DNA of 13,756 nt from a virus. Location of the stretch: the UHGV virus genome UHGV-0099327, one strand, 5' to 3'. Below, piece by piece: positions 1 through 13,756 of the stretch. How positions within the stretch are numbered: position 1 is the first letter of the stretch; each line of letters opens with the position of its first letter. The position numbers and the translations under genes are program-made. The notes below the pieces were generated by a model. It saw only the letters and a program-made list of their open reading frames with translations, was not told the DNA's origin and did no database searches.

Positions 1-21
1 CTCCGGATGAATATGATGATC

Positions 22-321
22 TCATATCAGGAACTTGTTCGCACCTTCCCTAATTTCTTTTTCTTCGCTGATTGAACTGATATCAGTAAAGTCACCAGCG
101 GCAATAAAATTCTTACCTTGATATTGCAAGTCGTAATAAGCATCAGTTAACAACAGTTCTGCGCCGTTATGCATCTTAATCTGAACAAGATGAAACAACG
201 CGCCAACACTGAACAACTGACCAGTAGTCAGTTCAGTATAAGCAGTGCCGTTAAAATCGTTATACGCTTCGATGAAGTCGGGGTCTTTTCTCAGTCTGTT
301 AAATTGGTCTTTTACTGACAT
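22..321 (-). CDS. hypothetical protein (99 aa)
   Basis: ORF in the supplied track. ATG at 321..319 is preceded by an AGAGGTGG Shine-Dalgarno-like sequence. Its start overlaps the stop of the upstream 191-aa ORF (TAATG), suggesting translational coupling. No family recognised. Confidence 0.45.
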   Translation of the reverse strand: MSVKDQFNRLRKDPDFIEAYNDFNGTAYTELTTGQLFSVGALFHLVQIKMHNGAELLLTDAYYDLQYQGKNFIAAGDFTDISSISEEKEIREGANKFLI

Positions 322-896
322 TACACCACCTCTGTTGCAGTGAGTTTAATATTTGAAATTGATGCTAAGTCTAACGGGATAGTATCGTTCGTTAGGATGA
401 ATCGTCCTTTTGTTCCTCTGTAACTGACAGTTTCACCAGCTTGAACGTTCTGCAACAGATTCGGAAATAGTTTCATCTCTCCACCTGCTTTGACATCCTC
501 CGTCACGGTGTACAGCTTGGAGTGATTCTGAAACTGAACAAGTGCTCCCGCTTCTAAAGTATCTGCAAAGCTGTTCAGAGTGACCTTACGCGCTCCTTTG
601 TTAGCTGTAACAGATGCCTGGATAAGTCCCTGAGCCGAGCCTTTATAGTCAGTCAAGTAGCTTAACGGAAAGTCAAACGGTTGACCTTGTTGATGCATCG
701 CGATAAAGCGTTGAACGTGTCTTGTGTCCTGCGACATATAATTCACAGTGAAATTCAATTCGAAATATTGAACGCCTGTATAACGTTTCTGAAAACGTCC
801 TGATACTGCTCTGTTAGAGAAAAACGGAGCATTTGATTTAAGCTGAACATCGGTCAGCCTAACGTCTGTGTCTAATAGATTCATAAGTCCTCTCAT
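321..896 (-). CDS. hypothetical protein (191 aa); true start may be the second Met at 884
   Basis: Long ORF transcribed divergently from the endolysin gene, with only 33 bp between the two starts. The second ATG (884..882) has a GAGGA motif a few nt upstream. No family recognised. Confidence 0.45.
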   Translation of the reverse strand: MRGLMNLLDTDVRLTDVQLKSNAPFFSNRAVSGRFQKRYTGVQYFELNFTVNYMSQDTRHVQRFIAMHQQGQPFDFPLSYLTDYKGSAQGLIQASVTANKGARKVTLNSFADTLEAGALVQFQNHSKLYTVTEDVKAGGEMKLFPNLLQNVQAGETVSYRGTKGRFILTNDTIPLDLASISNIKLTATEVV

Positions 897-929
897 AAAT
901 AAGATTTTAACTATATTTATGAGGCCAAT

Positions 930-1415
930 ATGGAACTAAACGCAATGCTTCGTTATGACGAAGGCGAAAAACTCACGATGTATAAAGACACAGAAGGATA
1001 TTTCACAATCGGTGTCGGACACTTGATTACAAAAAATCCATCAAGAGACTACGCTTTGAAAGAACTTGATAAAGCTGTTGGTCATCCTTGTTATGGATAT
1101 ATCACAGCGAAAAAATCTGATCAGTTACTGAATATTGATGTTAACTCAACTCTGCGTCAGCTTAGTAAAACAGAACTGCATCCAGCTTATATCAGAATCG
1201 ATACAGCCAGGCGTTCAGCGTTAATCAATATGTGTTTTCAACTCGGCGTTTCTGGCGTATGTCAGTTCAAGAAATTCTTGGGATACATAGCTGTTGGAGA
1301 TTATCAAAATGCGGCTGATGAAGCTTTAGACTCAAGATGGGCACGTCAGACTCCTAATAGAGCAAAACGTGTAACTGATGTTATTAGATATGGCGATTTC
1401 AGAAGTTATAATTAA
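930..1415 (+). CDS. endolysin, T4 lysozyme (gene e)-type muramidase, GH24
   Basis: 161-aa product aligns by eye along its length with T4 lysozyme (MELNAMLRYDEGEKLTMYKDTEGYFTIGVGHL versus T4 [32 protein letters not shown]). The catalytic Glu11, Asp20 and Thr26 equivalents are conserved, as are the ALINMCFQLG and RWARQTPNRAKRV blocks. GAGG sits 5 nt before the ATG. Confidence 0.9.
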   Translation: MELNAMLRYDEGEKLTMYKDTEGYFTIGVGHLITKNPSRDYALKELDKAVGHPCYGYITAKKSDQLLNIDVNSTLRQLSKTELHPAYIRIDTARRSALINMCFQLGVSGVCQFKKFLGYIAVGDYQNAADEALDSRWARQTPNRAKRVTDVIRYGDFRSYN

Positions 1416-1767
1416 AAATTTATATTATCTAATTTGAACAGCATCAAGTTGATGAATCGGACTAAGCAGATATGTAATTAACACCATCAGCTTAGTCTAC
1501 ATATAGCTTGTTATAATTTTTTACGACTCAACGAAGTCTTGTTAGGATAATGTAAACAAATCCGTTTTTTAGATGTTAGTAATATTAGCAATGTTCATCT
1601 TAGAATGTGATATCGAAGGAAACTCGAAAATGATAATAGCTTTACACTATTGAGAAAATTTGGTTGAGGCTTCAAAATAGAGCATTCATACGTGATCAAT
1701 AGCCAGACTAAGCAAGCAACAGCTAACCCCCGTAACGTACTGATTAAATTGATAATTGAAGGTGCAT

Positions 1768-2055
1768 ATGTTAAAAGTTACTGGTCTTGATAAGCTTCAG
1801 AAAGAACTCAAGGATGCAAAGCGTATACTGAGTGAGCTGGATGGCGAGCTAGGAGTCGTAAAGTTTAACCCTAACGACCCTGCTAGCATCGAGTCGGCAA
1901 TTCAAACAGTTAATCACATGATTGATGAACGCATTGGCGGATGTTCAACCAACTCCATAGTCGGCTCGCTTGCGCAGCAGATGAAGGAAACATACAGAGA
2001 AGGCATTCTTAAAAAAGCTGCCGAAGCCAGATTGACTTCAAGTGAGGATGAGTAA
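1768..2055 (+). CDS. hypothetical small protein (95 aa from ATG 1768), first gene of a two-gene operon with the TIR-like protein
   Basis: ORF with a GAAGGTG SD-like motif 3 nt before ATG 1768 (spacing short; the track starts at TTG 1756). Its stop overlaps the next gene's start (TAATG at 2053..2057). No family recognised. Confidence 0.5.
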   Translation: MLKVTGLDKLQKELKDAKRILSELDGELGVVKFNPNDPASIESAIQTVNHMIDERIGGCSTNSIVGSLAQQMKETYREGILKKAAEARLTSSEDE

Positions 2056-2951
2056 TGGCTCAAGATATTTTTTCTGAAATGAACAATGCTGTTCTGGATT
2101 TACAGGCTTCACAATACCAGACCTTTGAACGTCCACTCAAAAAGCTTGCTCAGCTTCTAAAACATTCCGATCTTGAATCATACAATGCAGACCTGACTGA
2201 AGGACTCAATCTTACAGAGTTTCTCGCAGAAAGTGAGAAGACTGGAGGAAGTATGGCTGGGAGTGCCCAGCTTGTCTGGCCAGATGATGCAAGAAAAACA
2301 CTAGGCCTTACATTACTTTTGATTTTTAAGTTAGCAGAAGATCCTAATTATGCAATCAACTTTGGACATCATTTTTTCTATTCCGGAAGTAAAGTTATAG
2401 CAGGCATTCATTCGATTACAGGACAACTTATCATTCCTTTCGTTAGAGATTACAAAAATTATGTTCAGTCTAAGGGAAGCACAGAAACTATGTTGAAGCC
2501 GCAGTTTTCGAACAAAGTTTTCATTGTTCATGGTCATGATGATGGCGCCCGTGAAACAGTCGCAAGGTTTCTTGAACGTATAGGTTTAGAAGCAATCATA
2601 TTACATGAGCAAGCTAATCAGGGACGAACTGTCATTGAGAAAGTTATAGCAAATAGTGATGTTGGATTTGCTGTTGTATTGCTAACACCAGATGATGAAG
2701 GTTGTGCTAAAGGAGGAATACCAGAACCAAGGGCAAGGCAGAATGTAATGCTAGAATTAGGATATTTTATCGGGCGTTTAGGCAGAGAGAAAGTATGTGC
2801 ACTAAAACGCGGCTCACTAGATATTCCAAGTGATTTTGCTGGGGTTGTTTGGGAAAATATGGATAGCAGTGGAGGCTGGAAGCAAGCACTCGCACGAGAA
2901 CTTGAAGCTGCTGGTCACAATATTGATTGGAATAAAGCAATGCGGAGTTGA
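2055..2951 (+). CDS. TIR-like domain protein (Cap12/PycTIR-type nucleotide-binding domain at C-terminus, uncharacterised N-terminal ~150 aa); candidate anti-phage effector
   Basis: 298-aa ORF with a GAGGA SD. The C-terminal half carries the motif series KVFIVHGHDDG (nt 2517..2546), AVVLLTPDDEG, RARQNVMLELGYFIGRLGREKVCAL and IPSDFAGVV. From memory this matches the bacterial TIR-like family found in CBASS Cap12 and Pycsar effectors. The N-terminal domain is not recognised. Confidence 0.6.
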   Translation: MAQDIFSEMNNAVLDLQASQYQTFERPLKKLAQLLKHSDLESYNADLTEGLNLTEFLAESEKTGGSMAGSAQLVWPDDARKTLGLTLLLIFKLAEDPNYAINFGHHFFYSGSKVIAGIHSITGQLIIPFVRDYKNYVQSKGSTETMLKPQFSNKVFIVHGHDDGARETVARFLERIGLEAIILHEQANQGRTVIEKVIANSDVGFAVVLLTPDDEGCAKGGIPEPRARQNVMLELGYFIGRLGREKVCALKRGSLDIPSDFAGVVWENMDSSGGWKQALARELEAAGHNIDWNKAMRS

Positions 2952-3002
2952 TTTTATATAGCTCTATTTTTAGCGATACTGGCGTTTCATCGACAATTAA
3001 AA

Positions 3003-3037
3003 ATTTGGCTGCTGATTAGCCTAAAACGCAGCCAAAT
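3003..3037. repeat. 10-bp inverted repeat (ATTTGGCTGC ... GCAGCCAAAT) with 15-nt spacer in the terS-upstream intergenic region; possible protein-binding site or cos/pac-associated element
   Basis: Arms at 3003..3012 and 3028..3037 are exact reverse complements. The repeat lies in the 337-bp non-coding stretch upstream of the Nu1-like gene, where lambda-like phages place cos. Confidence 0.35.
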
Positions 3038-3134
3038 ATAAATCATTAATGATATTGCTTAAATAAGTTTTAACGACTCATCTTCTGCCCCCCCTCTAAC
3101 AAAAAATAATAGTTACTCTGGGACTTCTGAAACA

Positions 3135-3163
3135 CCGAGATGTTTCGAGCGCTCGGCTTTTTT
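3135..3163 (+). terminator. putative intrinsic terminator downstream of the TIR-like operon
   Basis: CCGAG ... CTCGG stem (3135..3139 and 3152..3156) contains the palindrome CGAGCGCTCG and is followed by TTTTTT (3158..3163). Confidence 0.35.
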
Positions 3164-3288
3164 CTGCTGTGTGAAAATTCCAAATCAATTCAGTTCATCA
3201 TCGATAGACAGGACTGATTCCGGATGATTTTTCCGTTCAAGATAAATACAGTAATAAACCCTTGGGCCACTTGTGTAAGGAGAATAAA

Positions 3289-3810
3289 ATGGCACGTAAA
3301 ATTTACGTCAGTATGACTGATATGGCAAAACGTTATGGTTATACCCTTAACGCTATTAAATCATGGAGAGCAGAAGGACTTCCTTATTCAGATAATCCAG
3401 CAGGAATACCAGAAAACGAAGGCACTTTATGGATCGTTCAGAACAAAATTAATCCGATGCGCAATATGTCTGTTCGTGATGAATTCGAGAAAGAAAAACT
3501 TCGTGAACAGGTGGCGAAGGCTGACTTAGCAACTTATGCAGCGCAAGAAAAATCAGGTGAATTAATCCCTGTTGAGTTGGTGCAAGCTCAATTGAATCAG
3601 TTCTGTCAGTCTCTGAAAGATTCCATCAGGCTGATTCCGTCAAAACACGGTATCGAAATCATGGAGTCTGCTAATGATATCCAGGAGCTGAAAGAAAAAC
3701 TCAAAGAGATTTTCAACAGAACATTGAATGAACTTGGTGAGTCGTTCGAACAAGACTTCGAACACGTTGACAAACCAGAAGAGAAAGAAGATAGTGAAAT
3801 TGAACTTTAA
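3289..3810 (+). CDS. terS: terminase small subunit, lambda Nu1-like (N-terminal winged HTH)
   Basis: ATG at 3289 with an AAGGAG SD 6 nt upstream. The N-terminus (SMTDMAKRYGYTLNAIKSWRAEGLP) resembles the lambda Nu1 HTH (KKQLADIFGASIRTIQNWQEQGMP), followed by a similar EKEKLREQV acidic/coiled segment. An intrinsic terminator follows immediately. Confidence 0.6.
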   Translation: MARKIYVSMTDMAKRYGYTLNAIKSWRAEGLPYSDNPAGIPENEGTLWIVQNKINPMRNMSVRDEFEKEKLREQVAKADLATYAAQEKSGELIPVELVQAQLNQFCQSLKDSIRLIPSKHGIEIMESANDIQELKEKLKEIFNRTLNELGESFEQDFEHVDKPEEKEDSEIEL

Positions 3811-3835
3811 GGGAGTTTGCACTCCCTTTTTAATT
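3809..3835. terminator. intrinsic terminator (stem AAGGGAGT / ACTCCCTT, loop TTGC, T-run), probably bidirectional
   Basis: Perfect 8-bp stem begins at the terS stop codon and is followed by TTTTT on the + strand. On the minus strand the same hairpin follows the 70-aa gene and is flanked by A/T-rich sequence. Confidence 0.65.
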
Positions 3836-3916
3836 TCAAACAGTTACCATGTTTATGTATTTCATTTTTAAAATCGAATGAAGGAATTTAAAGCGATGGT
3901 GGGACCAAAATGTTTT

Positions 3917-4129
3917 TCATCGTGTTGCTCCTTTAAAGATTTGTTTCTGACGATTAATGAACATTCTTTCCTGCTTGAAATAGCCTGCTTCAATTTCGAC
4001 TGACTCTGTTAGATGTTGCTTAGGGTATTTTTCGCGACTAGCGCAATGTACATTTTTTCGTTGTAACATAAAACTGATTTTCACATAATCGCGCTTGCAA
4101 ATTACACACTTGTAATCATGGCCTGTCAT
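3917..4129 (-). CDS. hypothetical small Cys/His-containing protein (70 aa) immediately downstream of the retron RT
   Basis: ATG at 4129..4127 is preceded by a strong AAAGGAG SD at 6-nt spacing. The product contains CVIC ... HC, a possible metal-binding motif. It sits 187 bp downstream of the RT gene on the same strand and is followed by the hairpin at 3809..3835. Confidence 0.5.
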   Translation of the reverse strand: MTGHDYKCVICKRDYVKISFMLQRKNVHCASREKYPKQHLTESVEIEAGYFKQERMFINRQKQIFKGATR

Positions 4130-4316
4130 ATATACTCCTTTGTAAAACTATATTTATAGCCTCCATAACATTACAAAAGAATGATATTTTTAATTTGAGG
4201 TGTCGTCCAAATATGATTATATTCCAAAGTGACATTAATGAATATTGTCCCGACTACGGAATAGGGATTAAAATAAACCGTAACCGGGAAATATATTTAT
4301 TATCCATTTTTAACCA

Positions 4317-6086
4317 TCATGGATAGTACAAATTTTTAAAGTGATTATTAATATCAACCATAGCATCAAGAATTGGTTTGAACAATGAAAAATCTATAGT
4401 CTGTCTATTTTCTCTGATAATATTGTTGGCAAACCTGTCTTTTCCAAAAGTAGTAGTGCTATCATGATTATTACTTTTATCAAAGGATTTACCGTTAATT
4501 GTCTTTGTCAGAACTTCATCTTTGAAAAAGTCTTCCATGCACGATTGTTTATCACCAGCCAATAGTGGAGTTAACAATACGTAGAGGTTATTCTCTAAAT
4601 GTAAAAATTTATGTTTTCTTACGTCCTCTGATTTTCTAGGCAGGTGAGAATATTCTTTGATTATATTATTAATAAAATCAGATGGCCCAGTGTCATTATC
4701 CAAAACAATTATTACTGGATTTTTAGGCGGTTGTCTTTCAAATTTCTTGCATTGTTCTCTATGCCTTCTAAAGAATCTTACATAGTCAGCAGCCCCACCG
4801 TAGAGGTCTAAAAAATATTCCTTTTTTGCGTTTGTTTTGAATAACGTAATATTTAAAATTCTATTCTTTGTTCTATCGTCAACTCTAACCAGAGCAGGAT
4901 AACTTAAATACAAAGAATCAATTGCACATTTCAAATAAATTGGATCTGTTTTACCTTCTGTCAAAACTGTAGGCTTTATATTCCCATAAAAATACTTATA
5001 ATGAAGAAAGTTACTGAATGCTGTCTCTCTTGAATTCAATTTGAGAGTAAAATTAATTCCAGTTTTCTTTAGCACATATTTTTCTGGGAGTGTATGTTTT
5101 TTAGCGTTAATGTTATTATACTTATCAAGCATATCAATATAAACGAAGCGGCCTTCAAGTTCATTTAGAGTACCTTTTCGCGGTTTTCCACTAATATCCA
5201 AAAGGGTAAAATCCCCTTCTTTATAAAGTGCATGCGCCATAGCTCTGGTTTTTTTAATATAATCTTTATTGACATTTATTTTTTTGTTTACGGTTAAACC
5301 TGTTACTTCCTGCCTTGATGTATGCCGCAATATTCTGGTCTTATTATTATTAATTTTAAATCCAGCTTTTTCAATTTCATTAACTAACAATGGTCCTAAC
5401 TCGTTAGAATTCTCATTTATAACAATTGAGTCAGGAAACTGATTTTTGTTAGTTGAGAATGTTATATCATCTGCATATCGACTATAACTGCATCCATTAG
5501 AAAGTGCCAACTTTGACAATCTAATATCTAAAATATTACATATAAGATTGCTTATTACAGGAGAGCAAGGACTTCCTTGCGGAAGTTTTCCATCATAGCA
5601 AGCTATCTGCGCAATTATAGTTGCTATTGATGGGTGCAAATTAAAATATTGATTCGCGATAAAATAACCACGGACCCTACCGAAATTAAATGTAGGGAAA
5701 AAATCCTCAAGATCAATATTTAAAACATTGGTTTTATTTCTATGTCTTTCTGCATTTGTTATTATTGTTTTATTTTTCTCAAATCCATGAGATAAGCTAG
5801 GGGTGATATTATTTGTTTTCCATATTTCGCTCTGACAAACATACAATAAATCTGATAAACGCCTTTGTATGTCTTTTAGTTTTTCAGTAGGCGCAAATAT
5901 CTCTCTGTCACCTCCAGACTTCTTTTTTATAATAAATCTTTCATATTGATGCTCAGGTCGTATTCTGTACAGGACATTAGTAAGAAAAGAAACTTTAATT
6001 TGAAGTAAGCGTGCAAACTCAAATTTGGTCTTGCATGACTTGAGTCTTTCTAAGTAGGAGGGAGTGAACATAATAGTAAATTCCAT
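4317..6086 (-). CDS. retron reverse transcriptase fused to a C-terminal TOPRIM (OLD-nuclease-like) domain, Ec67-type
   Basis: 589-aa ORF carrying RT motifs: KKSGGDREI (aa 55..63), NIDLEDFF (motif A, Asp125), QGSPCSPVISN, and YADD (aa 204..207, nt 5477..5466). The C-terminal region has TOPRIM-like TEGKTD and VLDNDTG motifs. Size and motif order match my recollection of the Ec67 RT (about 586 aa). A retron-like ncRNA lies directly upstream. Confidence 0.9.
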   Translation of the reverse strand: MEFTIMFTPSYLERLKSCKTKFEFARLLQIKVSFLTNVLYRIRPEHQYERFIIKKKSGGDREIFAPTEKLKDIQRRLSDLLYVCQSEIWKTNNITPSLSHGFEKNKTIITNAERHRNKTNVLNIDLEDFFPTFNFGRVRGYFIANQYFNLHPSIATIIAQIACYDGKLPQGSPCSPVISNLICNILDIRLSKLALSNGCSYSRYADDITFSTNKNQFPDSIVINENSNELGPLLVNEIEKAGFKINNNKTRILRHTSRQEVTGLTVNKKINVNKDYIKKTRAMAHALYKEGDFTLLDISGKPRKGTLNELEGRFVYIDMLDKYNNINAKKHTLPEKYVLKKTGINFTLKLNSRETAFSNFLHYKYFYGNIKPTVLTEGKTDPIYLKCAIDSLYLSYPALVRVDDRTKNRILNITLFKTNAKKEYFLDLYGGAADYVRFFRRHREQCKKFERQPPKNPVIIVLDNDTGPSDFINNIIKEYSHLPRKSEDVRKHKFLHLENNLYVLLTPLLAGDKQSCMEDFFKDEVLTKTINGKSFDKSNNHDSTTTFGKDRFANNIIRENRQTIDFSLFKPILDAMVDINNHFKNLYYP

Positions 6087-6102
6087 TATTAATTATGTTA
6101 TT

Positions 6103-6231
6103 GCACATGCAGGCACTCTTACGCATTTCAAAGTGACGCCCAAGAAGATCCGACGTCCGTCAGAGGCGAATACTGCCGACCTTTTAATCACTGATTGCGA
6201 TACCACAACCAACAAATCTACCTGCATGTGC
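6103..6231 (-). ncRNA. msr-msd: retron msr-msd non-coding RNA (template for msDNA), bounded by 11-bp inverted repeats a1/a2
   Basis: Exact inverted repeat GCACATGCAGG (6103..6113) and CCTGCATGTGC (6221..6231) flanks about 107 nt, immediately 5' of the RT start on the minus strand. This is the canonical a1-msr-msd-a2-RT layout. The 5' part of the minus-strand segment (AGATTTGTTGGTTGTGGTATCGCAATCAGTG) resembles my unverified recollection of the Ec67 msr. The only ORF here (6064..6249) is implausible. Exact ends are uncertain. Confidence 0.6.
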
Positions 6232-6516
6232 CTTGCTAATTTATCATAGTTAACAATCAAAACAAGCACTTTTGAAAATGGTTGTATCTTATTGATTAAC
6301 TAATCATGGTCAAAGCCGAACATTCCTCGTGAAGATTGTTAGAATTTGAGATCTTTACGAGCACTTAACAGACTGTCAGATTCAGTCATGGAGCAAGTTG
6401 AATGCAATGTTATCATGTATCACTTTTTCTTTTTCGTCGTTAAGATGGTTCATAAAACTTACCATTAAGTCGATTGATAACTAGTAATTACATCTGTAGG
6501 TTCTCTTGATGATTTG

Positions 6517-7257
6517 TCAGAGGGCATTTGAGCTAAATAAAGTTGATTCGACGAGTTCAATTGCTTCATCTTCGATAGTTGATTTGTCCATTGTTTTGGT
6601 CGGCTCAGAAATATCAATTTTCACAATTACAATCTCGTCATCAAAAGATAGTTTTTCACCCCTTCTTTCTTTACGTAAAACGCTGTTCTCTTTGCTGAGT
6701 TCAGCGTTTTTCCTTTCTAACTCTGCGACTCTTTTCATCAAATCTTCCATTTTGGAATTCACAACATCTAGTTTCTGCTCAGTCGGAAATTCAATACTTT
6801 CGATGATTTCAATAAATTCACCAGTATACATCTGAACAAACTGCTCGGTGTCTTTGATCTTCTGCATTCTTAGATCTGAACAGAAAGCTTTCCACGAGTT
6901 CTTTTTACCGTTAATTTCACAAGCAACGATAACAGCATTATCGGTTGTATAAGCAACGATTGCAGGCAGATTATTAACTTCGGTCGTACCGATTTCGAAG
7001 CTATGCATATTTTTTACAGTCACAGCATTTTCAATCTTCTGTAACATCTTAGCTCGAACATTACGATGAATATCTATAGCTTTAACAAGAGCTTTCAGGC
7101 TGTTTTTGTTATTGGTCATTCTATTAACTTTGATAATATTTCTGTTCAGGCTTGCTTTAACTGTTCTGTCTAGATTTTCGAAGACTGCAAATTTGAAATT
7201 CAATTTATTTGCCTTTATTGATTGGTTGAGTTCTGATATTACGTTTTTTGCAAGCAT
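6517..7257 (-). CDS. hypothetical protein (246 aa) with C-terminal coiled-coil-like segment
   Basis: Long ORF with phage-like codon usage. No SD before ATG 7257. The 5' 53 nt overlap the upstream HTH ORF in a different frame. C-terminal region (KMEDLMKRVAELERKNAELSKENSVLRKERR) is heptad-like. Family not recognised. Confidence 0.5.
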   Translation of the reverse strand: MLAKNVISELNQSIKANKLNFKFAVFENLDRTVKASLNRNIIKVNRMTNNKNSLKALVKAIDIHRNVRAKMLQKIENAVTVKNMHSFEIGTTEVNNLPAIVAYTTDNAVIVACEINGKKNSWKAFCSDLRMQKIKDTEQFVQMYTGEFIEIIESIEFPTEQKLDVVNSKMEDLMKRVAELERKNAELSKENSVLRKERRGEKLSFDDEIVIVKIDISEPTKTMDKSTIEDEAIELVESTLFSSNAL

Positions 7258-7363
7258 TATACATCGTTGCTTTATTCATTTGTTTAGATTCTGCAATTTG
7301 CTGAAATGTCTCACCAGAGTCTAAGCGAGATTCAATTTCGAATTTGTTAGGTATAAATTTCAT
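7205..7363 (-). CDS. small HTH-like protein (52 aa from Met at 7363); possibly the N-terminal part of a frameshifted larger gene
   Basis: ORF track entry 7205..7399. I prefer the internal ATG at 7363 because the terminator hairpin at 7394..7413 overlaps the longer version. The segment SGETFQQIAESKQMNKATMYNACKK looks like a helix-turn-helix. No convincing SD. Confidence 0.3.
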   Translation of the reverse strand: MKFIPNKFEIESRLDSGETFQQIAESKQMNKATMYNACKKRNIRTQPINKGK

Positions 7364-7393
7364 GGGGTTGCCTTTTTTATTGAATTGAAAAAT

Positions 7394-7419
7394 AAGCACT
7401 CCGAAGAGTGCTTTAAACT
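7394..7419 (-). terminator. intrinsic terminator on minus strand (8-bp stem, UUCG tetraloop, U-tract)
   Basis: The + strand AAGCACTC-CGAA-GAGTGCTT at 7394..7413 reads on the minus strand as AAGCACUC-UUCG-GAGUGCUU followed by AUUUUUCAAUUC. Confidence 0.45.
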
Positions 7420-7619
7420 TAAGGAATTTTTAAATGAACTAAGCTAATTGCTTATATCTTATTTTATGACGGATAAAGTCAGTAGTAAACAAACGAGAGA
7501 AAATAACGAGGAAGAAGAAACTCTCTGTGTTCATACTAATATTTATATAGTTCACCGAAAGTGTAAACAAAGTCCGAAAAATAATTTAGTGAAAAGCAGG
7601 TGCATTGATGCACATCAAA

Positions 7620-7643
7620 ACGCATCGATAACGCATCGATGCG
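7620..7643. repeat. tandem direct repeat ACGCATCGATA/ACGCATCGATG, the second copy lying within a perfect 12-bp palindrome CGCATCGATGCG; adjacent TGCAT-tg-ATGCA inverted repeat at 7601..7612
   Basis: Read directly from the sequence: two 11-nt copies at 7620..7630 and 7631..7641, and the palindrome at 7632..7643. Operator-like architecture in a stretch with no convincing ORF. Confidence 0.4.
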
Positions 7644-7762
7644 ACTCGGAGAAGTGCATGGACCCTAGAAAAAATCGCCCTATAAGAACAATTGGATAAA
7701 GATGAACTGGAAGGATATAGAAGCAGTACAAAACCTGGAAAACATAGCGAAGCGAGCAGATT

Positions 7763-7888
7763 GCGCGAAGCGCGGGCGAAGCCCTAATTGATAAACATTA
7801 GCGCGAAGCGCGACAGATAACACTATCGAACTTGATTACTAGCTACTGATTAGATGTTTCTAGATAAAGATTATTAGCGCTTCGCGCG
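7763..7888. repeat. cluster of GC-rich mini-hairpin repeats (GCGC-GAA-GCGC, GGGC-GAA-GCCC, GCGC-TTC-GCGC) embedded in AT-rich non-coding DNA
   Basis: GCGCGAAGCGCG at 7763..7774 and 7801..7812, GGGCGAAGCCC at 7774..7784, and the inverted version GCGCTTCGCGCG at 7877..7888. Copies two and three share the 5' flank ATTAGCGC. These are GCGAAGC-type hairpins, known to be unusually stable as DNA. Confidence 0.5.
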
Positions 7889-8350
7889 TTCGCTACGCTC
7901 ACAATATTATTTTTCAGATCTGGATAATAATGATTACTGGATAACTGCATTATACTGTTCGTCTGACAATCAATAAACATAACGATCGATAATTAATTGA
8001 AATAACGTTAATGAGTTCTCCTTCGCTATCGCTACGTCGAACGGGCAAGCCCTATCTTTGATGATAGTAATGATTGACTGCTACATCATCCCTCCTCGCT
8101 TCTCCCTGCTTCTACTGACCTAATGATACTCCAAGTCAATTCCCTGTTATCAAGTTCACCTGATGCTTCCTGCTTCGTTATCGACCTTATTGCTTTTGAC
8201 TCTACGCTTTCAGCTTCGCAGGAAGTACGCCCTGCTGTTTGCAGATCGTTCTAAAGAACTGAGTAATCAAGTTCTCAACTATTTGATTCCTTGCGCCCCA
8301 AAGATGCCTCCAGTATCTGTGGTTTACAATCTACTCATTTGAAATTCAAT

Positions 8351-8378
8351 AAAAAAGGGAGCACTAAGCTCCCTTTTG
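8351..8378. terminator. intrinsic terminator hairpin (GGGAGC-ACTAA-GCTCCC) flanked by A-run and T-run, probably bidirectional
   Basis: 6-bp GC-rich stem at 8357..8362 and 8368..8373, with AAAAAA upstream and TTTT downstream. It lies immediately 3' of the 59-aa minus-strand gene, whose stop is at 8379..8381. Confidence 0.55.
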
Positions 8379-8558
8379 TCATTTCAGATCAAGCACTAAT
8401 GCTTGTTCAAGTTTTTTCTCAAGCAGAGTGTTTAATCCACTTTCGAAAAATTCAATCGCTTGAACGTCTGAGTCTGTTTTTAAGCGAACAGCGGCATCGT
8501 CAACTGTTAACTCTTCGGTCTTAACATCACCGTTTTTATAAACCACATTAGCAATCAT
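8379..8558 (-). CDS. hypothetical small protein (59 aa), not in the supplied ORF track
   Basis: My own translation of the minus strand: AAAGGAGAAAGC-ATG (ATG at 8558..8556) opens a 59-codon frame, MIANVVYKNGDVKTEELTVDDAAVRLKTDSDVQAIEFFESGLNTLLEKKLEQALVLDLK, ending TGA at 8381..8379 and followed directly by the terminator. Strong SD with ideal spacing. Confidence 0.5.
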   Translation of the reverse strand: MIANVVYKNGDVKTEELTVDDAAVRLKTDSDVQAIEFFESGLNTLLEKKLEQALVLDLK

Positions 8559-8796
8559 GCTTTCTCCTTTGTTGCTAAAAAATAATAACCGAATGATATC
8601 ACTTGTTCAATTTTTCTTTCAATCAAATAAGTATCCGATGAATAGTCGGCTCTCTAAACTAGCAGGTATGAAATAGTTCCTTAATTCTGAACTTCCTCAC
8701 TTTGCTTCCTATTTAATATTGCAATTTTAAATCTAGTGTAATTAATTTAGCTACAAACTTGCATTTATTATACATTTAAAAAATCGCCTCCATTCG

Positions 8797-9231
8797 TTAG
8801 GCATTCTCAGTTTCACTCATTTCTCCTTTAGTGCTATTCACACAGCGAAGAAACTGATCCCTCTGATACGCGGCAGTTTTGTCTGACATCTGTTTTTTGA
8901 ATAACTCAAAATCCCCCTCTGTACGTTTAAAAATAATCATGCTAATCGCAGATGGTTTTTTATTAGCCGATTTGCTAGCAAGAAGTTTTTCGATGTTATC
9001 GAATCCGAAAGCCTGATTCACGATTCGTTGTGCTTCAACAGCATCGACAACTTCAACCGTATTTTCAGCTTTAACTTCTTCAACAACTGTATATTCCTCG
9101 ATGTTAGCTTTAACACGACGAACAACAGAACGAGGAACATCGTATTTTTCAGCAAGCTTACTCTCTGACATATCAGTACCAGCGTTTAATTCAGAAGCAA
9201 TTCGGTTTTCAACAGTCAGTTCAGTTTTCAT
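8797..9231 (-). CDS. hypothetical HTH-containing protein (144 aa from Met at 9231), divergent from terL
   Basis: The internal ATG at 9231..9229 is preceded by AGGAGA, whereas the track start at 9288 has no SD. The N-terminal segment SESKLAEKYDVPRSVVRRV looks like a helix-turn-helix. C-terminal part not recognised. Confidence 0.55.
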   Translation of the reverse strand: MKTELTVENRIASELNAGTDMSESKLAEKYDVPRSVVRRVKANIEEYTVVEEVKAENTVEVVDAVEAQRIVNQAFGFDNIEKLLASKSANKKPSAISMIIFKRTEGDFELFKKQMSDKTAAYQRDQFLRCVNSTKGEMSETENA

Positions 9232-9376
9232 TGTCGTTCTCCTGTGTTTTGTTGGAACAGACTTTAACAGGCGGATATCCAGGTGCAAGAACTCTTAGAA
9301 ATAATTTTATGGAGGTTTTCATAAATACAGACAGAGAAATGAAATCCATTTTGGGTTCATCCACTTAGGGCTGATT

Positions 9377-11260
9377 ATGAAAAACTCAAATAAACTGAAA
9401 AGTATCTTACAGAATGCAAAGCGCTTTTTAATGCCACCTCCTGACTACACTCCGTCCGAGTGGGTCGAACAGTACCTGAAATTCCCTGATGGTCCTTATA
9501 CAGGGCAGCCGATGAAACTGTTTGAGTTTCAGAAAGGCATGATTGACGTCATTAAAGAACGTAAGAAGAAAATCGTCTTCGAGACTTCTGCCCAGATTGG
9601 CAAGACAACCATCTTGAACGGAATTCTGTTCTATAAGTCTGCTACTGATCCCGGTAACGCTGGTGTCTTGCAGTCAACCGGTAAAGAGACGACTCAATGG
9701 CTATCAGGCAAGATTCGCCCAATGATTGACGAATCGGAAGAAATGCAACGAATCGTCACCGACAAGAACGACAGAAACGCAGTGAATAACACCAGTCAAA
9801 TTCAGCTACGTGCTGGAGGCTTTTGGTATTTCATGTCGCTCAATAGCCCTTCTCACTTACGCGGTAAAACTCTTCCGCTGATGTTGCTTGATGAAGTTGA
9901 CGCAGTTGAAACAGACACAGAAGAAGGCAACCCGATTATCATCGCGGAACAACGTGCTACGACGTTCGGTGAAGACGCTCGTGTTTTCATTAGCTCGACG
10001 CCTACAAGTAAATACGGTGCTATCCACACGCAGTATGAAGCATCCGACAAGCGCAAGTATCATGTTCCCTGTCCTACATGTGGTCATAAGCACGAACTGA
10101 CGTGGGAGAATATCAAATTCGACTGGGTAAAAATCGATGGTAAATCATTACCTGATCCTAACTCTGCCAGAATTGAATGTCCTGAATGTCATCACGCTTT
10201 CTCTGAAGGCGACCGAGCACGAGCAATTAAACAAGGTGAATGGATTATTCATCAACCTGAAAGTCGAATTGCTGGATTCCACGTAAGTCGTTTATACAGC
10301 CCAATGAGTTCTATCAAATCAGTTGTTGAAGACTATAAGCAAGCATGGCAAACGTTCAGCTTGTCAACGTTTTATAACACTGTTCTTGGTCTACCGTTTG
10401 ATGATTTAAACGAAGACATTGAGGTTAGTAAATTAGAAACACTCAAGACGAATATCGGCATCAGCAATATACCAGAAGACACGTTGTTTTTAACCGCTGG
10501 GGTTGACCAACAGCAAGACCGTTTAGAAGTAACCTTGATGGGTCACAACGAACGAACCGTTTATATTCTTGCACATCGTAGCTTTATGACAATGAACGCT
10601 GAGGTTATCGATTCCCCTGCTTATAAAGAACTTCTTGCATACGTTAAAGCACCGTTCAGAACAGCTTTGGGAAGAAAGGTTCCTTTAGCGTGGGTGAACG
10701 TCGATAGCTCAAACGGTCGAGCAACTAAAACAATCTATCGTTTCTGCTCTCAGTGGACAAACCTGAAAGCAATTAAAGGTGCCAGCTCTGTTGATGCCCC
10801 TTATGTTCCAACGAAAATCACGAAAACCGGTGGTTATGAACTTTATATGATTGGTGTAAACCAAGGAAAAAACTTAGTTCGTGAACTGCTAAACAGAAGC
10901 GTGAAATCTGGAAATACACCAGTCAGAGTCGAAATCTCTGATGATGTTCCAGATGATTACTGCGAACAGCTTATGTCCGAAGAATTAAAACGCTCTGGTA
11001 ATACTGTTAGATGGGTTATTAAACAAGGCGGTGTTCGTAACGAAGGTCTTGACTGCTTTAACTACGGTTATTGCGCGCGTCTGCAAGTTCTAGAGAAAAT
11101 CAAATTTCACGAGTGGAGGAAACTCGCTGCTAAACCTGATATTGAAATGCCAGAAGAACAAAACGAAACAAATTCTCCTATTATTCAAACTCCTGAACCT
11201 CGTCGAAACATTATCAAACGAAACAGACCAGTTAATAAGCCTCGTGGTTTCGGATTATAA
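9377..11260 (+). CDS. terL: terminase large subunit, lambda GpA family
   Basis: 627-aa product with Walker A-like ETSAQIGKTT and Walker B-like LMLLDEVDAV. Blocks resemble lambda gpA: HVPCPTCGHKHEL ... CPECHH (Cys-rich), FHVSRLYSP, LTAGVDQQQDRLEVTLMG, IKGASS, GLDCFNYGYCA. Length is close to lambda gpA (about 641 aa). Confidence 0.9.
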   Translation: MKNSNKLKSILQNAKRFLMPPPDYTPSEWVEQYLKFPDGPYTGQPMKLFEFQKGMIDVIKERKKKIVFETSAQIGKTTILNGILFYKSATDPGNAGVLQSTGKETTQWLSGKIRPMIDESEEMQRIVTDKNDRNAVNNTSQIQLRAGGFWYFMSLNSPSHLRGKTLPLMLLDEVDAVETDTEEGNPIIIAEQRATTFGEDARVFISSTPTSKYGAIHTQYEASDKRKYHVPCPTCGHKHELTWENIKFDWVKIDGKSLPDPNSARIECPECHHAFSEGDRARAIKQGEWIIHQPESRIAGFHVSRLYSPMSSIKSVVEDYKQAWQTFSLSTFYNTVLGLPFDDLNEDIEVSKLETLKTNIGISNIPEDTLFLTAGVDQQQDRLEVTLMGHNERTVYILAHRSFMTMNAEVIDSPAYKELLAYVKAPFRTALGRKVPLAWVNVDSSNGRATKTIYRFCSQWTNLKAIKGASSVDAPYVPTKITKTGGYELYMIGVNQGKNLVRELLNRSVKSGNTPVRVEISDDVPDDYCEQLMSEELKRSGNTVRWVIKQGGVRNEGLDCFNYGYCARLQVLEKIKFHEWRKLAAKPDIEMPEEQNETNSPIIQTPEPRRNIIKRNRPVNKPRGFGL

Positions 11261-11280
11261 ATATAAGAAAGGAGAACTCA

Positions 11281-11775
11281 ATGCAAAAATCAAATTCAGA
11301 AATTTACATCGGTGAAAAACTCGCTGTTTATAATCCTGAAGGTGCAACAGTCTCCATAGGCTCAACTGAAACTAAATTGTTTTCTCAAACTGATTGTCCA
11401 GCGAATATCTCGGTGGACACATCAGATTTTATCGAAGGAACTTTTTCTGTTGTTGTTCTCTATGAAGGTGCGCTTATCAGTAACAGCATTATCAAAGTGA
11501 AATCACCATTCGTTTCAAAAACGAAAAAAGAACAACTCAGGGAAATGATTAACGATATCGATACGGTTATTCAGTATCGTCTGACAAGTAACGAAGAAGC
11601 TATTCAGCAAATGAGCATTAACGGTAAATCATTCGTATATGAAACCCTTGATTCTCTGCTATTAGCTCGCAAACGTCTATTAGCAAACTTGGCGAATCTG
11701 ATTAAGTCAGAACAAATGGCAAACGGTAAATCTCCGATTGTTACTATTAAAGCGAGGTTCACGAATCCATCATGA
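11281..11775 (+). CDS. gpW-like head-tail joining/head completion protein with N-terminal extension (putative)
   Basis: Strong SD (AAAGGAGAA) before the ATG. Sits between terL and portal, where lambda has gpW. The C-terminal ~70 aa (SINGKSFVYETLDSLLLARKRLLANL) loosely resemble the gpW fold signature. At 164 aa it is much longer than lambda W (68 aa). Confidence 0.4.
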   Translation: MQKSNSEIYIGEKLAVYNPEGATVSIGSTETKLFSQTDCPANISVDTSDFIEGTFSVVVLYEGALISNSIIKVKSPFVSKTKKEQLREMINDIDTVIQYRLTSNEEAIQQMSINGKSFVYETLDSLLLARKRLLANLANLIKSEQMANGKSPIVTIKARFTNPS

Positions 11776-13337
11776 CATTAAAAGAATTTTTCACATTTAA
11801 AAAACCAGAACCTGAAAAGCGTTCGAAGGGTTACAGATTAGTAAATTACAAACAACCAAAGCTTATTATCGATAACGACAAAGCTTATGGTTCAGAGATG
11901 AAACGTCTTATGGGTCCTCGTGTTGACCGTTTGGATGGTGATTTCAATACTAATCTGATCAGAACTGCAACGATTAATAACGAGATTCGAGGCAACGTTG
12001 AAAAACTGCGTGATATGTCCCGAACTCTGACAGTTAATAGTCCGTTTGCAAAACATGCAGCACAATATCAGATTGATAACGTTATTGGTGAAGGTATTAA
12101 TCCTCAACTGCGTATTCTTCAATCTAATGGTAAACCGAATAAGAAACTGAACTCTGCTATTTCAAATCAGTTTTATTTCTGGGCAGACTCTGCAAAACGT
12201 TTCAGTAAAAACGAGCGTATGAACTGGCGCAGATTCCAAGAAATGGTTGAACGTTCTCGCTTCGTTGATGGTGAAGTTTTTATCCGTATCTATGAAACAG
12301 AAACTGAATTTAAACTCGAACTGATTGAAGCAGCTCGCTGTAAATTCGGTGAAAGAGCAACAACTGAAAACGGTTATATTCTTGACGGTATCGAATACGA
12401 CGCATCGAATACACCGATTCGTTATTACTTTGACAGCGTAAACCAATCGACTCAGACAGCATCAGGAAAGTCTTATTCTGTTGAAGCATCAGACGTTATT
12501 CATTATTTCAAAGACGAGTTCCCTGATCAGCGTAGAGGTTATCCAGAGATAACTCCTAATATCGACGTTATGAATCAATACGACGCTTTTACAAAAGCCA
12601 CTCTTGTTCAAAAACGTGCTGCTGCAAGTTCTATGGGTTTCATCACTCAAGATAAAGACGGTCAGGATAACATCGAACTCGATGACGATAACGAAATGCA
12701 AGAAACTCCTGAAATCATTCAGAACTTTGAATCAGGAACAATTCATCAATTGCCTGCTGGTTACGATATCAAGCAGTTTAGCTCTACTCAGGGCGGTGAT
12801 GATTACTTGAATTTCACAAGTCGTCTGGAAGATATGCTTTCGATGGGTTACGGCTTTTATAAGCAAGGTTGGAAAGGTGATACGTCAGGTATTAACTATT
12901 CTGCGGCTCGCTTCGGTGATTTAACTCAACGTAATAAATTCCGTTCTGTTCAACGCAATATTAAAGAGCAAGTTTTTGAAACTATCTTTGAACGTTGGTT
13001 GACTTGGATGATTATGCAAGAACGAATTCAAATGCGCATGACTGCTATTCCAGAGATGTTAAGACAGACTGTTTGGACATATCCAAAATGGGCATCAATC
13101 GACCCAAGCAAAGACGCACAGAAAGACGCGCTTGATGTTGAAAACGGTTTTAAATCTGCTGCTGACGTAATTATTGAACGCGGTGAAGATCCAGAACTGG
13201 TGTTTGCTCAGATTGAACAAGAGAAAACTCGTTTTGTTCCGAAATACAGTAATCAAATTGCGGTTGCTTCTGTTGCTGCTGATGCGCAAGTGGAAGTTGC
13301 TGAAATTAATTCGGATAACAGCCAGAAAAACATCTAA
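11772..13337 (+). CDS. portal protein, lambda gpB-type
   Basis: 521-aa ORF whose start overlaps the upstream stop (ATGA). Position after terL and W, length and sequence character (for example GYDIKQFSSTQGGDDYLNFTSRLEDMLSMGYG, SAARFGDLTQRNKFRSVQ) are consistent with lambda-family portals. Confidence 0.8.
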   Translation: MTLKEFFTFKKPEPEKRSKGYRLVNYKQPKLIIDNDKAYGSEMKRLMGPRVDRLDGDFNTNLIRTATINNEIRGNVEKLRDMSRTLTVNSPFAKHAAQYQIDNVIGEGINPQLRILQSNGKPNKKLNSAISNQFYFWADSAKRFSKNERMNWRRFQEMVERSRFVDGEVFIRIYETETEFKLELIEAARCKFGERATTENGYILDGIEYDASNTPIRYYFDSVNQSTQTASGKSYSVEASDVIHYFKDEFPDQRRGYPEITPNIDVMNQYDAFTKATLVQKRAAASSMGFITQDKDGQDNIELDDDNEMQETPEIIQNFESGTIHQLPAGYDIKQFSSTQGGDDYLNFTSRLEDMLSMGYGFYKQGWKGDTSGINYSAARFGDLTQRNKFRSVQRNIKEQVFETIFERWLTWMIMQERIQMRMTAIPEMLRQTVWTYPKWASIDPSKDAQKDALDVENGFKSAADVIIERGEDPELVFAQIEQEKTRFVPKYSNQIAVASVAADAQVEVAEINSDNSQKNI

Positions 13338-13390
13338 ATACATTCAGTAAAACAAAGAGCGTCGAAAGACGCTCAACAAGAGGAATCGAA

Positions 13391-13756
13391 ATGCTAAAAC
13401 TAAAACGCGATTTCGAAGCCCAAGAAATTAAAATTACTGATGATAGTTATGAAATTGCGTTCTCAAGTGAAACTCCTGTTGAACGTCAAATTCTCGATAG
13501 TTACGGTCAACCAATAACAGTTAACGAAATTCTTTTGCATGACGGCCCTCAAAATGCTGACCTCGAGCGAATTAATAACGGTGCTGCTCTGTTGTTTAAC
13601 CATAATTTCGACAATCATCTAGGCGTTGTAATTCCTGGGTCTGTAAGAATCGATAATGACCGTAAAGGTCGCGCTGTTGTTAAATTCAGTAAAGTTGGTC
13701 AATTAGCTAAGGAAGGTGCGAATAAGCGGGGAAATTCTTCTCGGCTGACTCAGTCA
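13391..13756 (+). CDS. prohead protease (HK97-type), 5' partial; runs off the window end
   Basis: ATG at 13391 is preceded by AAGAGGAA. The N-terminal segment EIAFSSETPVERQILDSYGQPITVNEILLHDGP ... ALLFNHNFDNHLGVV ... DRKGRAVVKFSK resembles HK97-family prohead proteases. It is in the expected position after the portal gene. Confidence 0.55.
   Translation, partial: MLKLKRDFEAQEIKITDDSYEIAFSSETPVERQILDSYGQPITVNEILLHDGPQNADLERINNGAALLFNHNFDNHLGVVIPGSVRIDNDRKGRAVVKFSKVGQLAKEGANKRGNSSRLTQS

What the first reader, a model, noticed from the sequence alone, without database searches (positions are those of the whole stretch)
1768..2951. Two-gene operon encoding a TIR-like-domain protein between endolysin and terS
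The 298-aa protein combines an unrecognised ~150-aa N-terminal domain with a C-terminal TIR-like domain (FIVHGHD ... LLTPDDEG ... RxRQNVxxELGYF), the type used as an NAD-depleting effector in CBASS and Pycsar. It is translationally coupled to an unrecognised 95-aa protein. It occupies the position where lambdoid phages often carry morons, between the lysis genes and cos/terS. It could be an uncharacterised phage-borne abortive-infection or exclusion module, with the small protein as sensor, regulator or antitoxin.
Basis: partly seen in the sequence, partly recalled or inferred. Interest (0 to 1): 0.75.

Follow-up and report, generated by a model that had tools for sequence, protein, structure and literature searches.

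The report
Two-gene TIR-like candidate phage-defence cassette
A prophage carries a tightly coupled gene pair, a small helical protein plus a protein ending in an NAD-cleaving-type TIR domain, that belongs to a widespread but untested family (also on the F plasmid) built like an abortive-infection defence module with a new kind of sensor part.

Summary
A 95-aa ORF (1768-2055) and a 298-aa ORF (2055-2951) overlap by one base (TAATG). The large protein has a helical N-domain with no family match and a C-terminal PF10137 Cap12/Pycsar-type TIR domain (E 5e-38) with the motif Glu (E234) intact.

The small protein belongs to the new Pfam family YuaX, named after an F-plasmid gene.

Comparative results:
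- In 69 of 70 loci carrying the N-domain, a YuaX gene lies immediately upstream with overlapping stop and start codons. None of 89 loci with the same TIR type but another N-terminus has one.
- YuaX and the N-domain are fused in over 100 protein clusters.
- The C-terminal domain is swapped for classical TIR, DUF4145, a Hypoth_Ymh domain with an RNxxxH motif, two hydrophobic helices or unknown domains.

So YuaX plus the N-domain is a constant partner module and the TIR is an interchangeable effector. The pair has no conserved third gene. It sits among defence and mobile-element genes: a retron here, pifA on F, and Gabija on an integrative element.

Best reading: an autonomous abortive-infection or toxin-antitoxin-like defence cassette that depletes NAD+. 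It is not CBASS, Pycsar or Thoeris. No experimental study was found. It is a new variant of a known kind.

The parts
1416..1767 (+). AT-rich intergenic region upstream of the pair, about 31-34% GC. It is the presumed promoter region. It contains one weak sigma-70-like match at 1650-1678 and the Shine-Dalgarno AAGG(T)G at 1759-1764.
   Evidence: Promoter function is inferred only. The scan found fewer promoter-like sites than shuffled sequence gives.
1768..2055 (+). Small gene: a 95-aa acidic protein (pI 5.2) of Pfam family YuaX (PF27363). It is predicted to be three helices with a conserved loop, F(D/N)PxDPxSIExAI.
   Evidence: 167 homologues, all carrying PF27363; fused-homologue model, pLDDT 85-96 over this part; purifying selection.
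2044..2057 (+). Coupling junction: GAGGA (2044-2048) inside the 3' end of the small gene, then a TAATG stop/start overlap (2053-2057).
   Evidence: Equivalent TGATG, TAATG or ATGA overlaps occur in nearly all of 61 species loci.
2055..2477 (+). N-domain of the large protein (residues 1-141). It is all-helical with no known family. Invariant motifs are D15-L16, L73xW75-P76 and P128-F-x-R131-D132-Y.
   Evidence: no PDB relative; found joined to many different C-terminal domains.
2478..2504 (+). Predicted disordered linker (residues 142-150).
   Evidence: pLDDT below 50 for residues 142-150.
2514..2948 (+). TIR-like effector domain (residues 154-298), Pfam PF10137. The presumed catalytic Glu, E234, is the codon at 2754-2756.
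2949..2951 (+). Stop codon of the large gene.

Best explanation
The pair is an autonomous two-gene conflict cassette of the abortive-infection or toxin-antitoxin-like defence kind, carried here as prophage cargo.

The large protein is an effector. Its C-terminal PF10137 TIR domain is of the type that, in Cap12 (TIR-STING) and PycTIR, destroys NAD+ once the protein is driven to assemble. Its helical N-domain, together with the separately encoded and co-translated YuaX-family protein, forms the constant regulatory or sensing module.

Proposed working. In the uninfected lysogen, YuaX bound to the N-domain keeps the TIR domain inactive. A phage-derived cue, such as a phage protein or a consequence of infection, alters or removes that complex. 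TIR domains can then self-associate and hydrolyse NAD+, which stops growth of the infected cell and replication of the superinfecting phage.

Shown here: the domain identities, an intact conserved active-site motif, the strict YuaX/N-domain partnership, natural fusions, effector swapping, the absence of any signal-generating enzyme, and a defence or mobile-element genomic context.

Inferred, not shown: physical binding of YuaX to the N-domain, NADase activity, toxicity, the nature of the trigger, and phage protection.

For: 2. Partnership. 61 of 62 species loci and 8 of 8 viral loci with the N-domain have YuaX directly upstream on the same strand, with stop/start overlap. 0 of 17 and 0 of 72 loci with the same TIR type but a different N-terminus have it.

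3. Fusion evidence. About 25 representative clusters at 50% identity, and more than 100 clusters at 90% identity, encode YuaX, N-domain and TIR in one roughly 404-aa chain. The fused model has pLDDT 88.7.

4. Effector swapping on a constant YuaX plus N-domain module. Alternatives are TIR_2, DUF4145, Hypoth_Ymh with an RNPKAH motif, two hydrophobic helices, and domains with no Pfam match. YuaX was verified upstream of the TIR_2, DUF4145 and unknown-domain variants.

5. Self-contained. 341 flanking ORFs fall into 308 clusters, so there is no conserved third gene. No cyclase or Thoeris-type effector is in the window.

6. Context:
- Retron Ec67 RT-Toprim two genes downstream in the window.
- pifA/pifC, ccdAB or vapBC on F and about 990 other plasmids.
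- Gabija-like AAA_15/OLD-TOPRIM plus UvrD in a Yersinia integrative element.
- ThsB-TIR/caspase genes in Pseudomonas aeruginosa.
- GajA, type I methylase and BrxL among neighbours.
- A Tn7-like element in Bradyrhizobium.

7. PADLOC candidate-defence models PDC-S35 hit the TIR half at E 1e-70.
Against: No functional data exist. No paper on this pair was found in the searchable library.

One locus (L057) has an intact large gene without YuaX, so YuaX may not be an obligatory inhibitor.

Neighbourhoods also include many housekeeping genes, and defence enrichment was not quantified statistically.

All related E. coli prophages carry the pair, so there is no presence/absence contrast linked to a phenotype.
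Confidence: 0.55

Rival explanations
1. It is a plain toxin-antitoxin addiction module. The TIR protein is a growth-arresting toxin and YuaX is its labile protein antitoxin. The main role is stabilising the prophage, plasmid or integrative element through post-segregational killing, not sensing phage.
For: The layout is small upstream gene then larger downstream gene with overlapping stop/start, as in type II toxin-antitoxin pairs. The pair lives on plasmids beside ccdAB, vapBC and parDE. In strain PSS-15 the TIR gene is split by IS2 while the small gene is intact, as expected if only loss of the toxin is tolerated. NAD+-degrading toxin-antitoxin toxins exist (RES-Xre, MbcT; from established knowledge, not tested here).
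Against: YuaX is acidic (pI 5.2) and has no recognisable DNA-binding domain. Covalent fusion of YuaX to the toxin is common, which does not fit control by differential proteolysis. L057 keeps the large gene without YuaX. Many toxin-antitoxin modules also act in defence, so this rival overlaps the main explanation rather than excluding it.
Confidence: 0.2
2. It is a non-immune nucleotide-metabolism or regulatory function. The PF10137 domain acts as a nucleotide or nucleoside hydrolase, a transferase, or only a nucleotide-binding module that benefits the phage or host, for example by remodelling the nucleotide pool. The annotation 'nucleotide-binding protein' would then be literally correct.
Against: Sequence profiles place it in the Cap12/PycTIR TIR family, not in the deoxyribosyltransferase families. 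The same YuaX plus N-domain module carries TIR_2, DUF4145, Hypoth_Ymh and hydrophobic-helix C-termini, which share cell-killing potential rather than a metabolic reaction. There is no conserved metabolic neighbour.
Confidence: 0.08
3. It is a Thoeris-like signalling pair. The TIR protein senses infection and makes an ADPR-derived signal, and the small YuaX protein is the downstream effector.
For: It is a two-gene operon containing a TIR domain. Many new two-gene Thoeris types were recently described (bioRxiv 10.64898/2025.12.03.692087).
Against: The TIR domain is the replaceable part, while YuaX and the N-domain are constant. That is the opposite of Thoeris, where the TIR is constant and the effectors vary. 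The TIR is of the PF10137 effector type, with no ThsB_TIR match. YuaX is a 95-aa soluble helical protein with no enzymatic or membrane domain. Fusion proteins exist.
Confidence: 0.03
4. It is a phage counter-defence gene. The prophage TIR-like enzyme degrades or sequesters host immune nucleotides or NAD-derived signals to help the phage.
For: It is located in a phage genome next to lysis and packaging genes. PF10137-type domains are fairly common in viral contigs, with 139 relatives.
Against: The YuaX/N-domain architecture is overwhelmingly on plasmids, integrative elements and chromosomal islands. No full-length homologue occurs in 50,697 isolate phage genomes. The variety of swapped effectors does not fit signal degradation.
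Confidence: 0.04

Closest known systems
Cap12 (TIR-STING) and PycTIR effectors of CBASS and Pycsar
   Same: Same Pfam TIR subfamily (PF10137), with conserved RxNVxxExG and PSD motifs and the same fold. It probably shares the NAD+-depleting output that requires self-assembly; that activity is established for those proteins, not for this one.
   Different: There is no STING, SAVED or cNMP-binding sensor domain and no cyclase gene nearby. The NCBIfam Cap12 equivalog scores 36 bits against a 450-bit cut-off. The sensor part is instead a novel helical N-domain plus a separate YuaX protein.
PADLOC candidate system PDC-S35 (single-gene, untested)
   Same: Five PDC-S35 models match at E 1e-40 to 1e-70. 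It is the same TIR-like domain type, flagged as a defence candidate.
   Different: The match covers only residues about 136-295, which is model positions about 115-278. The models' N-terminal part is not matched. The group with a different N-terminus never has a YuaX gene. The window's version is a two-gene system with a different N-domain.
F-plasmid yuaX and the adjacent 'nucleotide-binding protein' gene (NC_002483.1 41216-42395)
   Same: It is a full-length homologous pair: 45% identity for the small protein and 51% for the large one, with the same order and coupling.
   Different: It is plasmid-borne and convergent on pifA/pifC. It is a divergent clade. No function is reported for either copy.
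Fused toxin-antitoxin sensors such as CapRel(SJ46), and NAD+-depleting toxin-antitoxin toxins (RES-Xre, MbcTA)
   Same: The logic is similar. An inhibitory or sensing module, either separate or fused, controls a growth-arresting enzyme, and fused and split forms coexist. This is an analogy from established knowledge.
   Different: There is no sequence or fold relation. The effector chemistry and the sensor fold are different. Trigger sensing by YuaX and the N-domain is hypothetical.
Thoeris (ThsB TIR plus ThsA-type effectors)
   Same: It is a TIR-containing multigene defence operon.
   Different: In Thoeris the TIR is the constant signal generator and the effectors vary. Here the TIR is one of several interchangeable C-terminal effectors. 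There is no ThsB_TIR match.

Membership tests
Pfam PF10137 CAP12-PCTIR_TIR (TIR-like domain) | Profile score above the curated gathering threshold | tested here: met
   130.3 bits against a 24.7-bit cut-off, E 4.8e-38, residues 154-270 covering model positions 1-118 of 119.
Pfam PF10137 CAP12-PCTIR_TIR (TIR-like domain) | TIR (flavodoxin-like) fold with the conserved Glu of the NVxxExG motif | tested here: met
Pfam PF10137 CAP12-PCTIR_TIR (TIR-like domain) | NAD+ glycohydrolase activity | not testable with these tools
   This needs an enzyme assay.
CBASS (Cap12 effector) | Adjacent CD-NTase cyclase gene | tested here: not met
   No PADLOC or Pfam cyclase hit among the window ORFs. There is no conserved third gene across 62 loci.
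CBASS (Cap12 effector) | Cyclic-nucleotide sensor domain (STING or SAVED) fused to the TIR, and the NCBIfam Cap12 equivalog score | tested here: not met
   NF050171 scores 36 bits against a 450-bit cut-off and matches only the TIR core. The non-TIR part is a helical domain with no PDB match.
Pycsar (PycTIR) | Adjacent PycC cyclase and a cNMP-binding domain | tested here: not met
   The PADLOC PycTIR hit is partial only (E 1e-8, residues 201-270). There is no cyclase in the window.
Thoeris | ThsB-type TIR plus a signal-responsive effector gene (for example SIR2-SLOG or Macro) | tested here: not met
   No PF08937 match for the window protein. The partner is a 95-aa helical protein. The TIR domain is the swappable part.
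PADLOC PDC-S35 candidate | Full-length match to the PDC-S35 models as a single-gene system | tested here: inconclusive
   E is down to 9.6e-71, but only the C-terminal roughly 160 residues align (model positions 115-277 of 278). The N-terminus differs, and an obligatory partner gene is present.
Pfam PF27363 YuaX (small protein) | Profile match | tested here: met
   This is indirect. The model is not in the local Pfam copy (one search found nothing). All 120 listed homologues, including the 99%-identical P0121, carry the precomputed PF27363.1, and the name is given. The protein is 45% identical to the F-plasmid protein.
Type II toxin-antitoxin system | Antitoxin with a DNA-binding domain that autoregulates the operon, and neutralisation of the toxin by direct binding | tested here: inconclusive
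   No HTH or RHH family match, and the small protein is acidic (pI 5.2). Binding and neutralisation are not testable here. Gene order and coupling are compatible with this family.

The most novel reading that the evidence does not exclude
YuaX plus the helical N-domain is a previously undescribed, direct infection-sensing module. It has been combined by evolution with at least five kinds of cell-killing effectors: two TIR types, two domains that I recall as HEPN-type (DUF4145 and Hypoth_Ymh), two hydrophobic helices, and others. It exists in split and fused forms. It would define a new family of defence systems present on the classical F plasmid beside pifA, on about a thousand enterobacterial plasmids including Klebsiella virulence plasmids, on integrative elements and in prophages. 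The F copy may contribute to F-mediated phage exclusion.
Probability: 0.45. Interest if true: 0.72.

Novelty: new variant of a known kind. Interest (0 to 1): 0.6.

Why it matters
If the inference holds, this is a compact defence family that is easy to test. Its sensor has no counterpart among solved structures, and it is carried by medically and historically important elements: the F plasmid, large Klebsiella plasmids including at least one rmpA2-bearing plasmid, Pseudomonas and Yersinia integrative elements, and an E. coli prophage that also carries a retron.

The coexistence of split and fused forms, and the interchangeable effectors, make it a good model for two questions: how a small partner protein gates a TIR NADase, and how sensing modules are recombined with effectors. 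It would also add a second candidate exclusion function next to pifA on F.

If it proves to be only an addiction module, it still documents a new regulator for TIR-type toxins.

Tried and rejected
Literature. Searches for PDC-S35, PF27363, YuaX, yuaY/yuaZ/yuaW, COG4271, 'TIR-like' with pifA, six RefSeq protein accessions, and 'TIR-like domain' with phage all found nothing relevant. The PF10137 search gave only general TIR surveys. The supplements of the Thoeris survey had no PF10137 or TIR-like entries.

Near-identical DNA in isolate phage genomes: none.

Sequence and profile searches of YuaX and the N-domain against PDB: nothing below E 0.08. Foldseek of the fused model against PDB and BFVD hit only the TIR part. 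The afdb50 library was unavailable.

Test for homology between YuaX and the N-domain, in case of an internal duplication: rejected, hhalign probability 0.3%.

Terminator search downstream of the pair. The scan found none on the + strand. Folding of 2952-3060 and 3100-3180 was not significantly better than shuffles, so no terminator is claimed.

Rfam and tRNA scans of the window: empty.

It was replaced by single look-ups.

The first dN/dS attempt for the small gene was out of frame and was redone.

The neighbourhood census with bundled ORFs gives only family counts, so defence enrichment could not be quantified.

CBASS, Pycsar and Thoeris membership were considered and rejected (see the membership tests).

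Full report
**Observation**

The small one is 95 aa (1768-2055). The large one is 298 aa (2055-2951).
- The small gene's TAA and the large gene's ATG share base 2055.
- A GAGGA lies 7 nt upstream, inside the small gene.
- The quoted motifs are present at residues 156, 209 and 226.
- The flanks are a phage lysozyme gene (930-1415) and a small terminase subunit (3289-3810; phrog_57, E 6e-21).

Both ORFs are genuine genes. The large protein has thousands of homologues and the small one at least 167. Against orthologues from other genera, synonymous sites are saturated (pS about 0.8). Non-synonymous differences are only 0.09-0.12 for the large gene and 0.15-0.20 for the small gene.

**What the proteins are**

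The C-terminal half of the large protein matches Pfam PF10137 (CAP12/Pycsar effector TIR domain) at E 4.8e-38. That is 130 bits against a 24.7-bit threshold.
- Solved Cap12 (TIR-STING) chains align over the RxNVxxExG and PSD motifs.
- An AlphaFold model built on a 90-sequence alignment has mean pLDDT 86.6. It shows a helical N-domain (residues 1-141), a disordered linker (142-150) and an alpha/beta domain (154-298).
- E234 and the surrounding motif are invariant across sequences down to about 47% identity.

The N-domain has no Pfam, NCBIfam or PHROG annotation and no relative among PDB sequences or structures.

The small protein has no hit in the local libraries. Its close homologues carry the recently created Pfam family PF27363 'YuaX'. 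It is acidic (pI 5.2). In a high-confidence model of a fused homologue it forms three helices with a conserved FDPxDPxSIExAI loop. It is not homologous to the N-domain.

**Comparative anatomy, the main result**

1. I searched the N-domain alone against 1.84 billion representative proteins. It found 256 relatives. Domain mapping showed three architectures:
   - N-domain plus a PF10137 TIR.
   - N-domain plus other C-termini. These are the classical TIR_2, DUF4145, Hypoth_Ymh carrying an RNPKAH motif, two hydrophobic helices, or domains with no Pfam match. From memory, DUF4145 and Hypoth_Ymh are HEPN-type domains; that was not tested here.
   - About 25 clusters in which a YuaX segment is covalently fused in front of the N-domain.

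2. The fusion is common. More than 100 clusters at 90% identity, about 404 aa long and carrying PF27363 plus PF10137, occur in Bradyrhizobium, Bosea, Reyranella, Asticcacaulis and others.

3. I fetched loci from one genome per species and scanned them with my own HMMs.
   - 61 of 62 loci with the N-domain have a YuaX ORF immediately upstream on the same strand. One of these is an in-frame fusion.
   - Nearly all of these junctions show TGATG, TAATG or ATGA overlaps.
   - None of 17 loci with the same TIR type but another N-terminus has YuaX.
   - Viral contigs give the same split: 8 of 8 against 0 of 72.

4. YuaX also precedes N-domain proteins that carry TIR_2, DUF4145 or an unknown C-terminus.

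5. The three ORFs on each side of the pair form 308 clusters from 341 ORFs, so there is no conserved third gene.

Together these results say that YuaX and the N-domain are an obligate partnership. The C-terminal TIR is one of several interchangeable effector domains.

**Genomic context**

The window is 95.8% identical to a prophage inserted next to ybiT in E. coli MS 115-1. Only 7 of 5,426 complete E. coli genomes carry this cassette. All carry it in this prophage family at the same position, between the lysozyme gene and terS.

The stretch between terS and terL is the variable one. In the window it holds a retron Ec67-family RT-Toprim gene (NF038237, 709 bits).

Elsewhere the pair is cargo of other mobile elements.
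- The classical F plasmid carries it at NC_002483.1 41216-42395, convergent on pifA/pifC and next to ccdAB.
- About 990 other plasmids carry it, including IncI plasmids and large Klebsiella plasmids such as the rmpA2-bearing pK214_rmpA2, beside vapBC.
- An integrative element shared by Pseudomonas aeruginosa and Yersinia enterocolitica carries it. There an Xre-type gene precedes it, and Gabija-like genes or ThsB-TIR/caspase genes follow.
- It sits in a Tn7-like element in Bradyrhizobium.
- It sits in Vibrio and Serratia islands with AAA_15/AAA_21 ATPases and parDE.
- A census of 150 representative neighbours found GajA, type I methylases, BrxL, OLD-TOPRIM, integrases and resolvases, along with ordinary genes.

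**Mechanism**

The pattern of a constant module with swappable cell-killing domains is the signature of abortive-infection effectors.

This cassette has no cyclase or other signal generator. The constant YuaX/N-domain module must therefore receive the cue itself.

My best-supported model (confidence 0.55) is this. YuaX binds the N-domain and holds the TIR domain off. Infection disturbs the complex. The TIR domains then assemble and deplete NAD+, aborting the infection.

Fused forms show that proteolytic removal of YuaX is not universally required. That fits a conformational sensor of the kind seen in fused toxin-antitoxin defence proteins, which is an analogy only.

Rival explanations:
- A classical addiction module (0.2). 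It overlaps the main model rather than excluding it.
- A non-immune nucleotide enzyme (0.08).
- Phage counter-defence (0.04).
- Thoeris-like signalling (0.03). This is contradicted because the TIR is the variable part here.

Binding, activity, toxicity, the trigger and protection are all inferred.

**Comparison with known systems**

The TIR domain is a member of PF10137. The system is not CBASS, Pycsar or Thoeris, because their defining partners and sensor domains were looked for and not found.

PADLOC's untested candidate PDC-S35 matches only the TIR half. It corresponds to the relatives that have another N-terminus and never have YuaX.

Ten literature searches found no paper on the pair. The library is incomplete, so prior work cannot be excluded.

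**Verdict**

Its interpretation is supported as far as sequence and comparative evidence can go. The finding is a new variant of a known kind: a TIR-effector conflict system with a previously undescribed two-part sensor or regulator, which is widespread and easy to test. Interest is 0.6.

Noticed in passing
window 4317-6086 (-), and upstream to about 6500: A retron Ec67-family RT-Toprim gene (NCBIfam NF038237, 709 bits; PADLOC RT-Toprim_I-C, E 7e-216) lies between terS and terL. No Rfam family matched the expected msr/msd region. Related prophages (E-93, PSS-15) carry unrelated genes at this place.
   Followed up: partly
window 3289-3810 and 9377-11260: The small and large terminase genes are separated by about 5.5 kb of cargo on both strands: the retron, a 246-aa coiled-coil protein at 6517-7257 (-), and a roughly 1.4-kb stretch (7400-8800) with only short ORFs. 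This is an unusual split of the packaging module and the hypervariable slot of this prophage family.
   Followed up: partly
L001 (E. coli MS 115-1) 24326-27434; L011 (PSS-15) 3021-5253: In MS 115-1 the large terminase gene is split by an IS3 element, whereas it is intact in the window. In PSS-15 the TIR-like gene is split by IS2 while the small gene stays intact.
   Followed up: no
L177 (F plasmid NC_002483.1) 6217-7396 of the locus, record 41216-42395: The classical F plasmid carries a 45%/51%-identical copy of the pair. It converges on pifA (T7 exclusion) and pifC, with ccdAB next. I found no record of its role in F-mediated phage exclusion.
   Followed up: partly
L005 7406-7699; L182 7401-7700: Copies on the integrative element (Pseudomonas aeruginosa, Yersinia enterocolitica) have an extra Xre-type HTH_3 gene 13 nt upstream of YuaX. 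This suggests a three-gene operon variant. The gene is absent from the window.
   Followed up: no
L057 5962-6894: This is the only locus of 70 where an intact N-domain plus TIR-like gene lacks an upstream YuaX ORF. The upstream gene is unrelated.
   Followed up: partly
L059 7247-8657: Downstream of the pair in an alphaproteobacterial MAG, there are two or three further ORFs or fragments matching the same TIR-like C-domain. They could be an array of paralogues or decayed copies.
   Followed up: no
L178/L179 3900-7135 and 11057-14286: In Bradyrhizobium, the fused YuaX-TIR gene sits in a Tn7-like element (TniB/TniQ). Two divergent copies of a gene pair flank it: a large PNP_UDP_1-domain protein (about 595 aa) plus a 482-aa protein. 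This may be another conflict system.
   Followed up: no
window 1-13756: GC content is low for E. coli, about 30-44% throughout and 30-33% over the retron. This is consistent with foreign origin of the whole prophage region.
   Followed up: no
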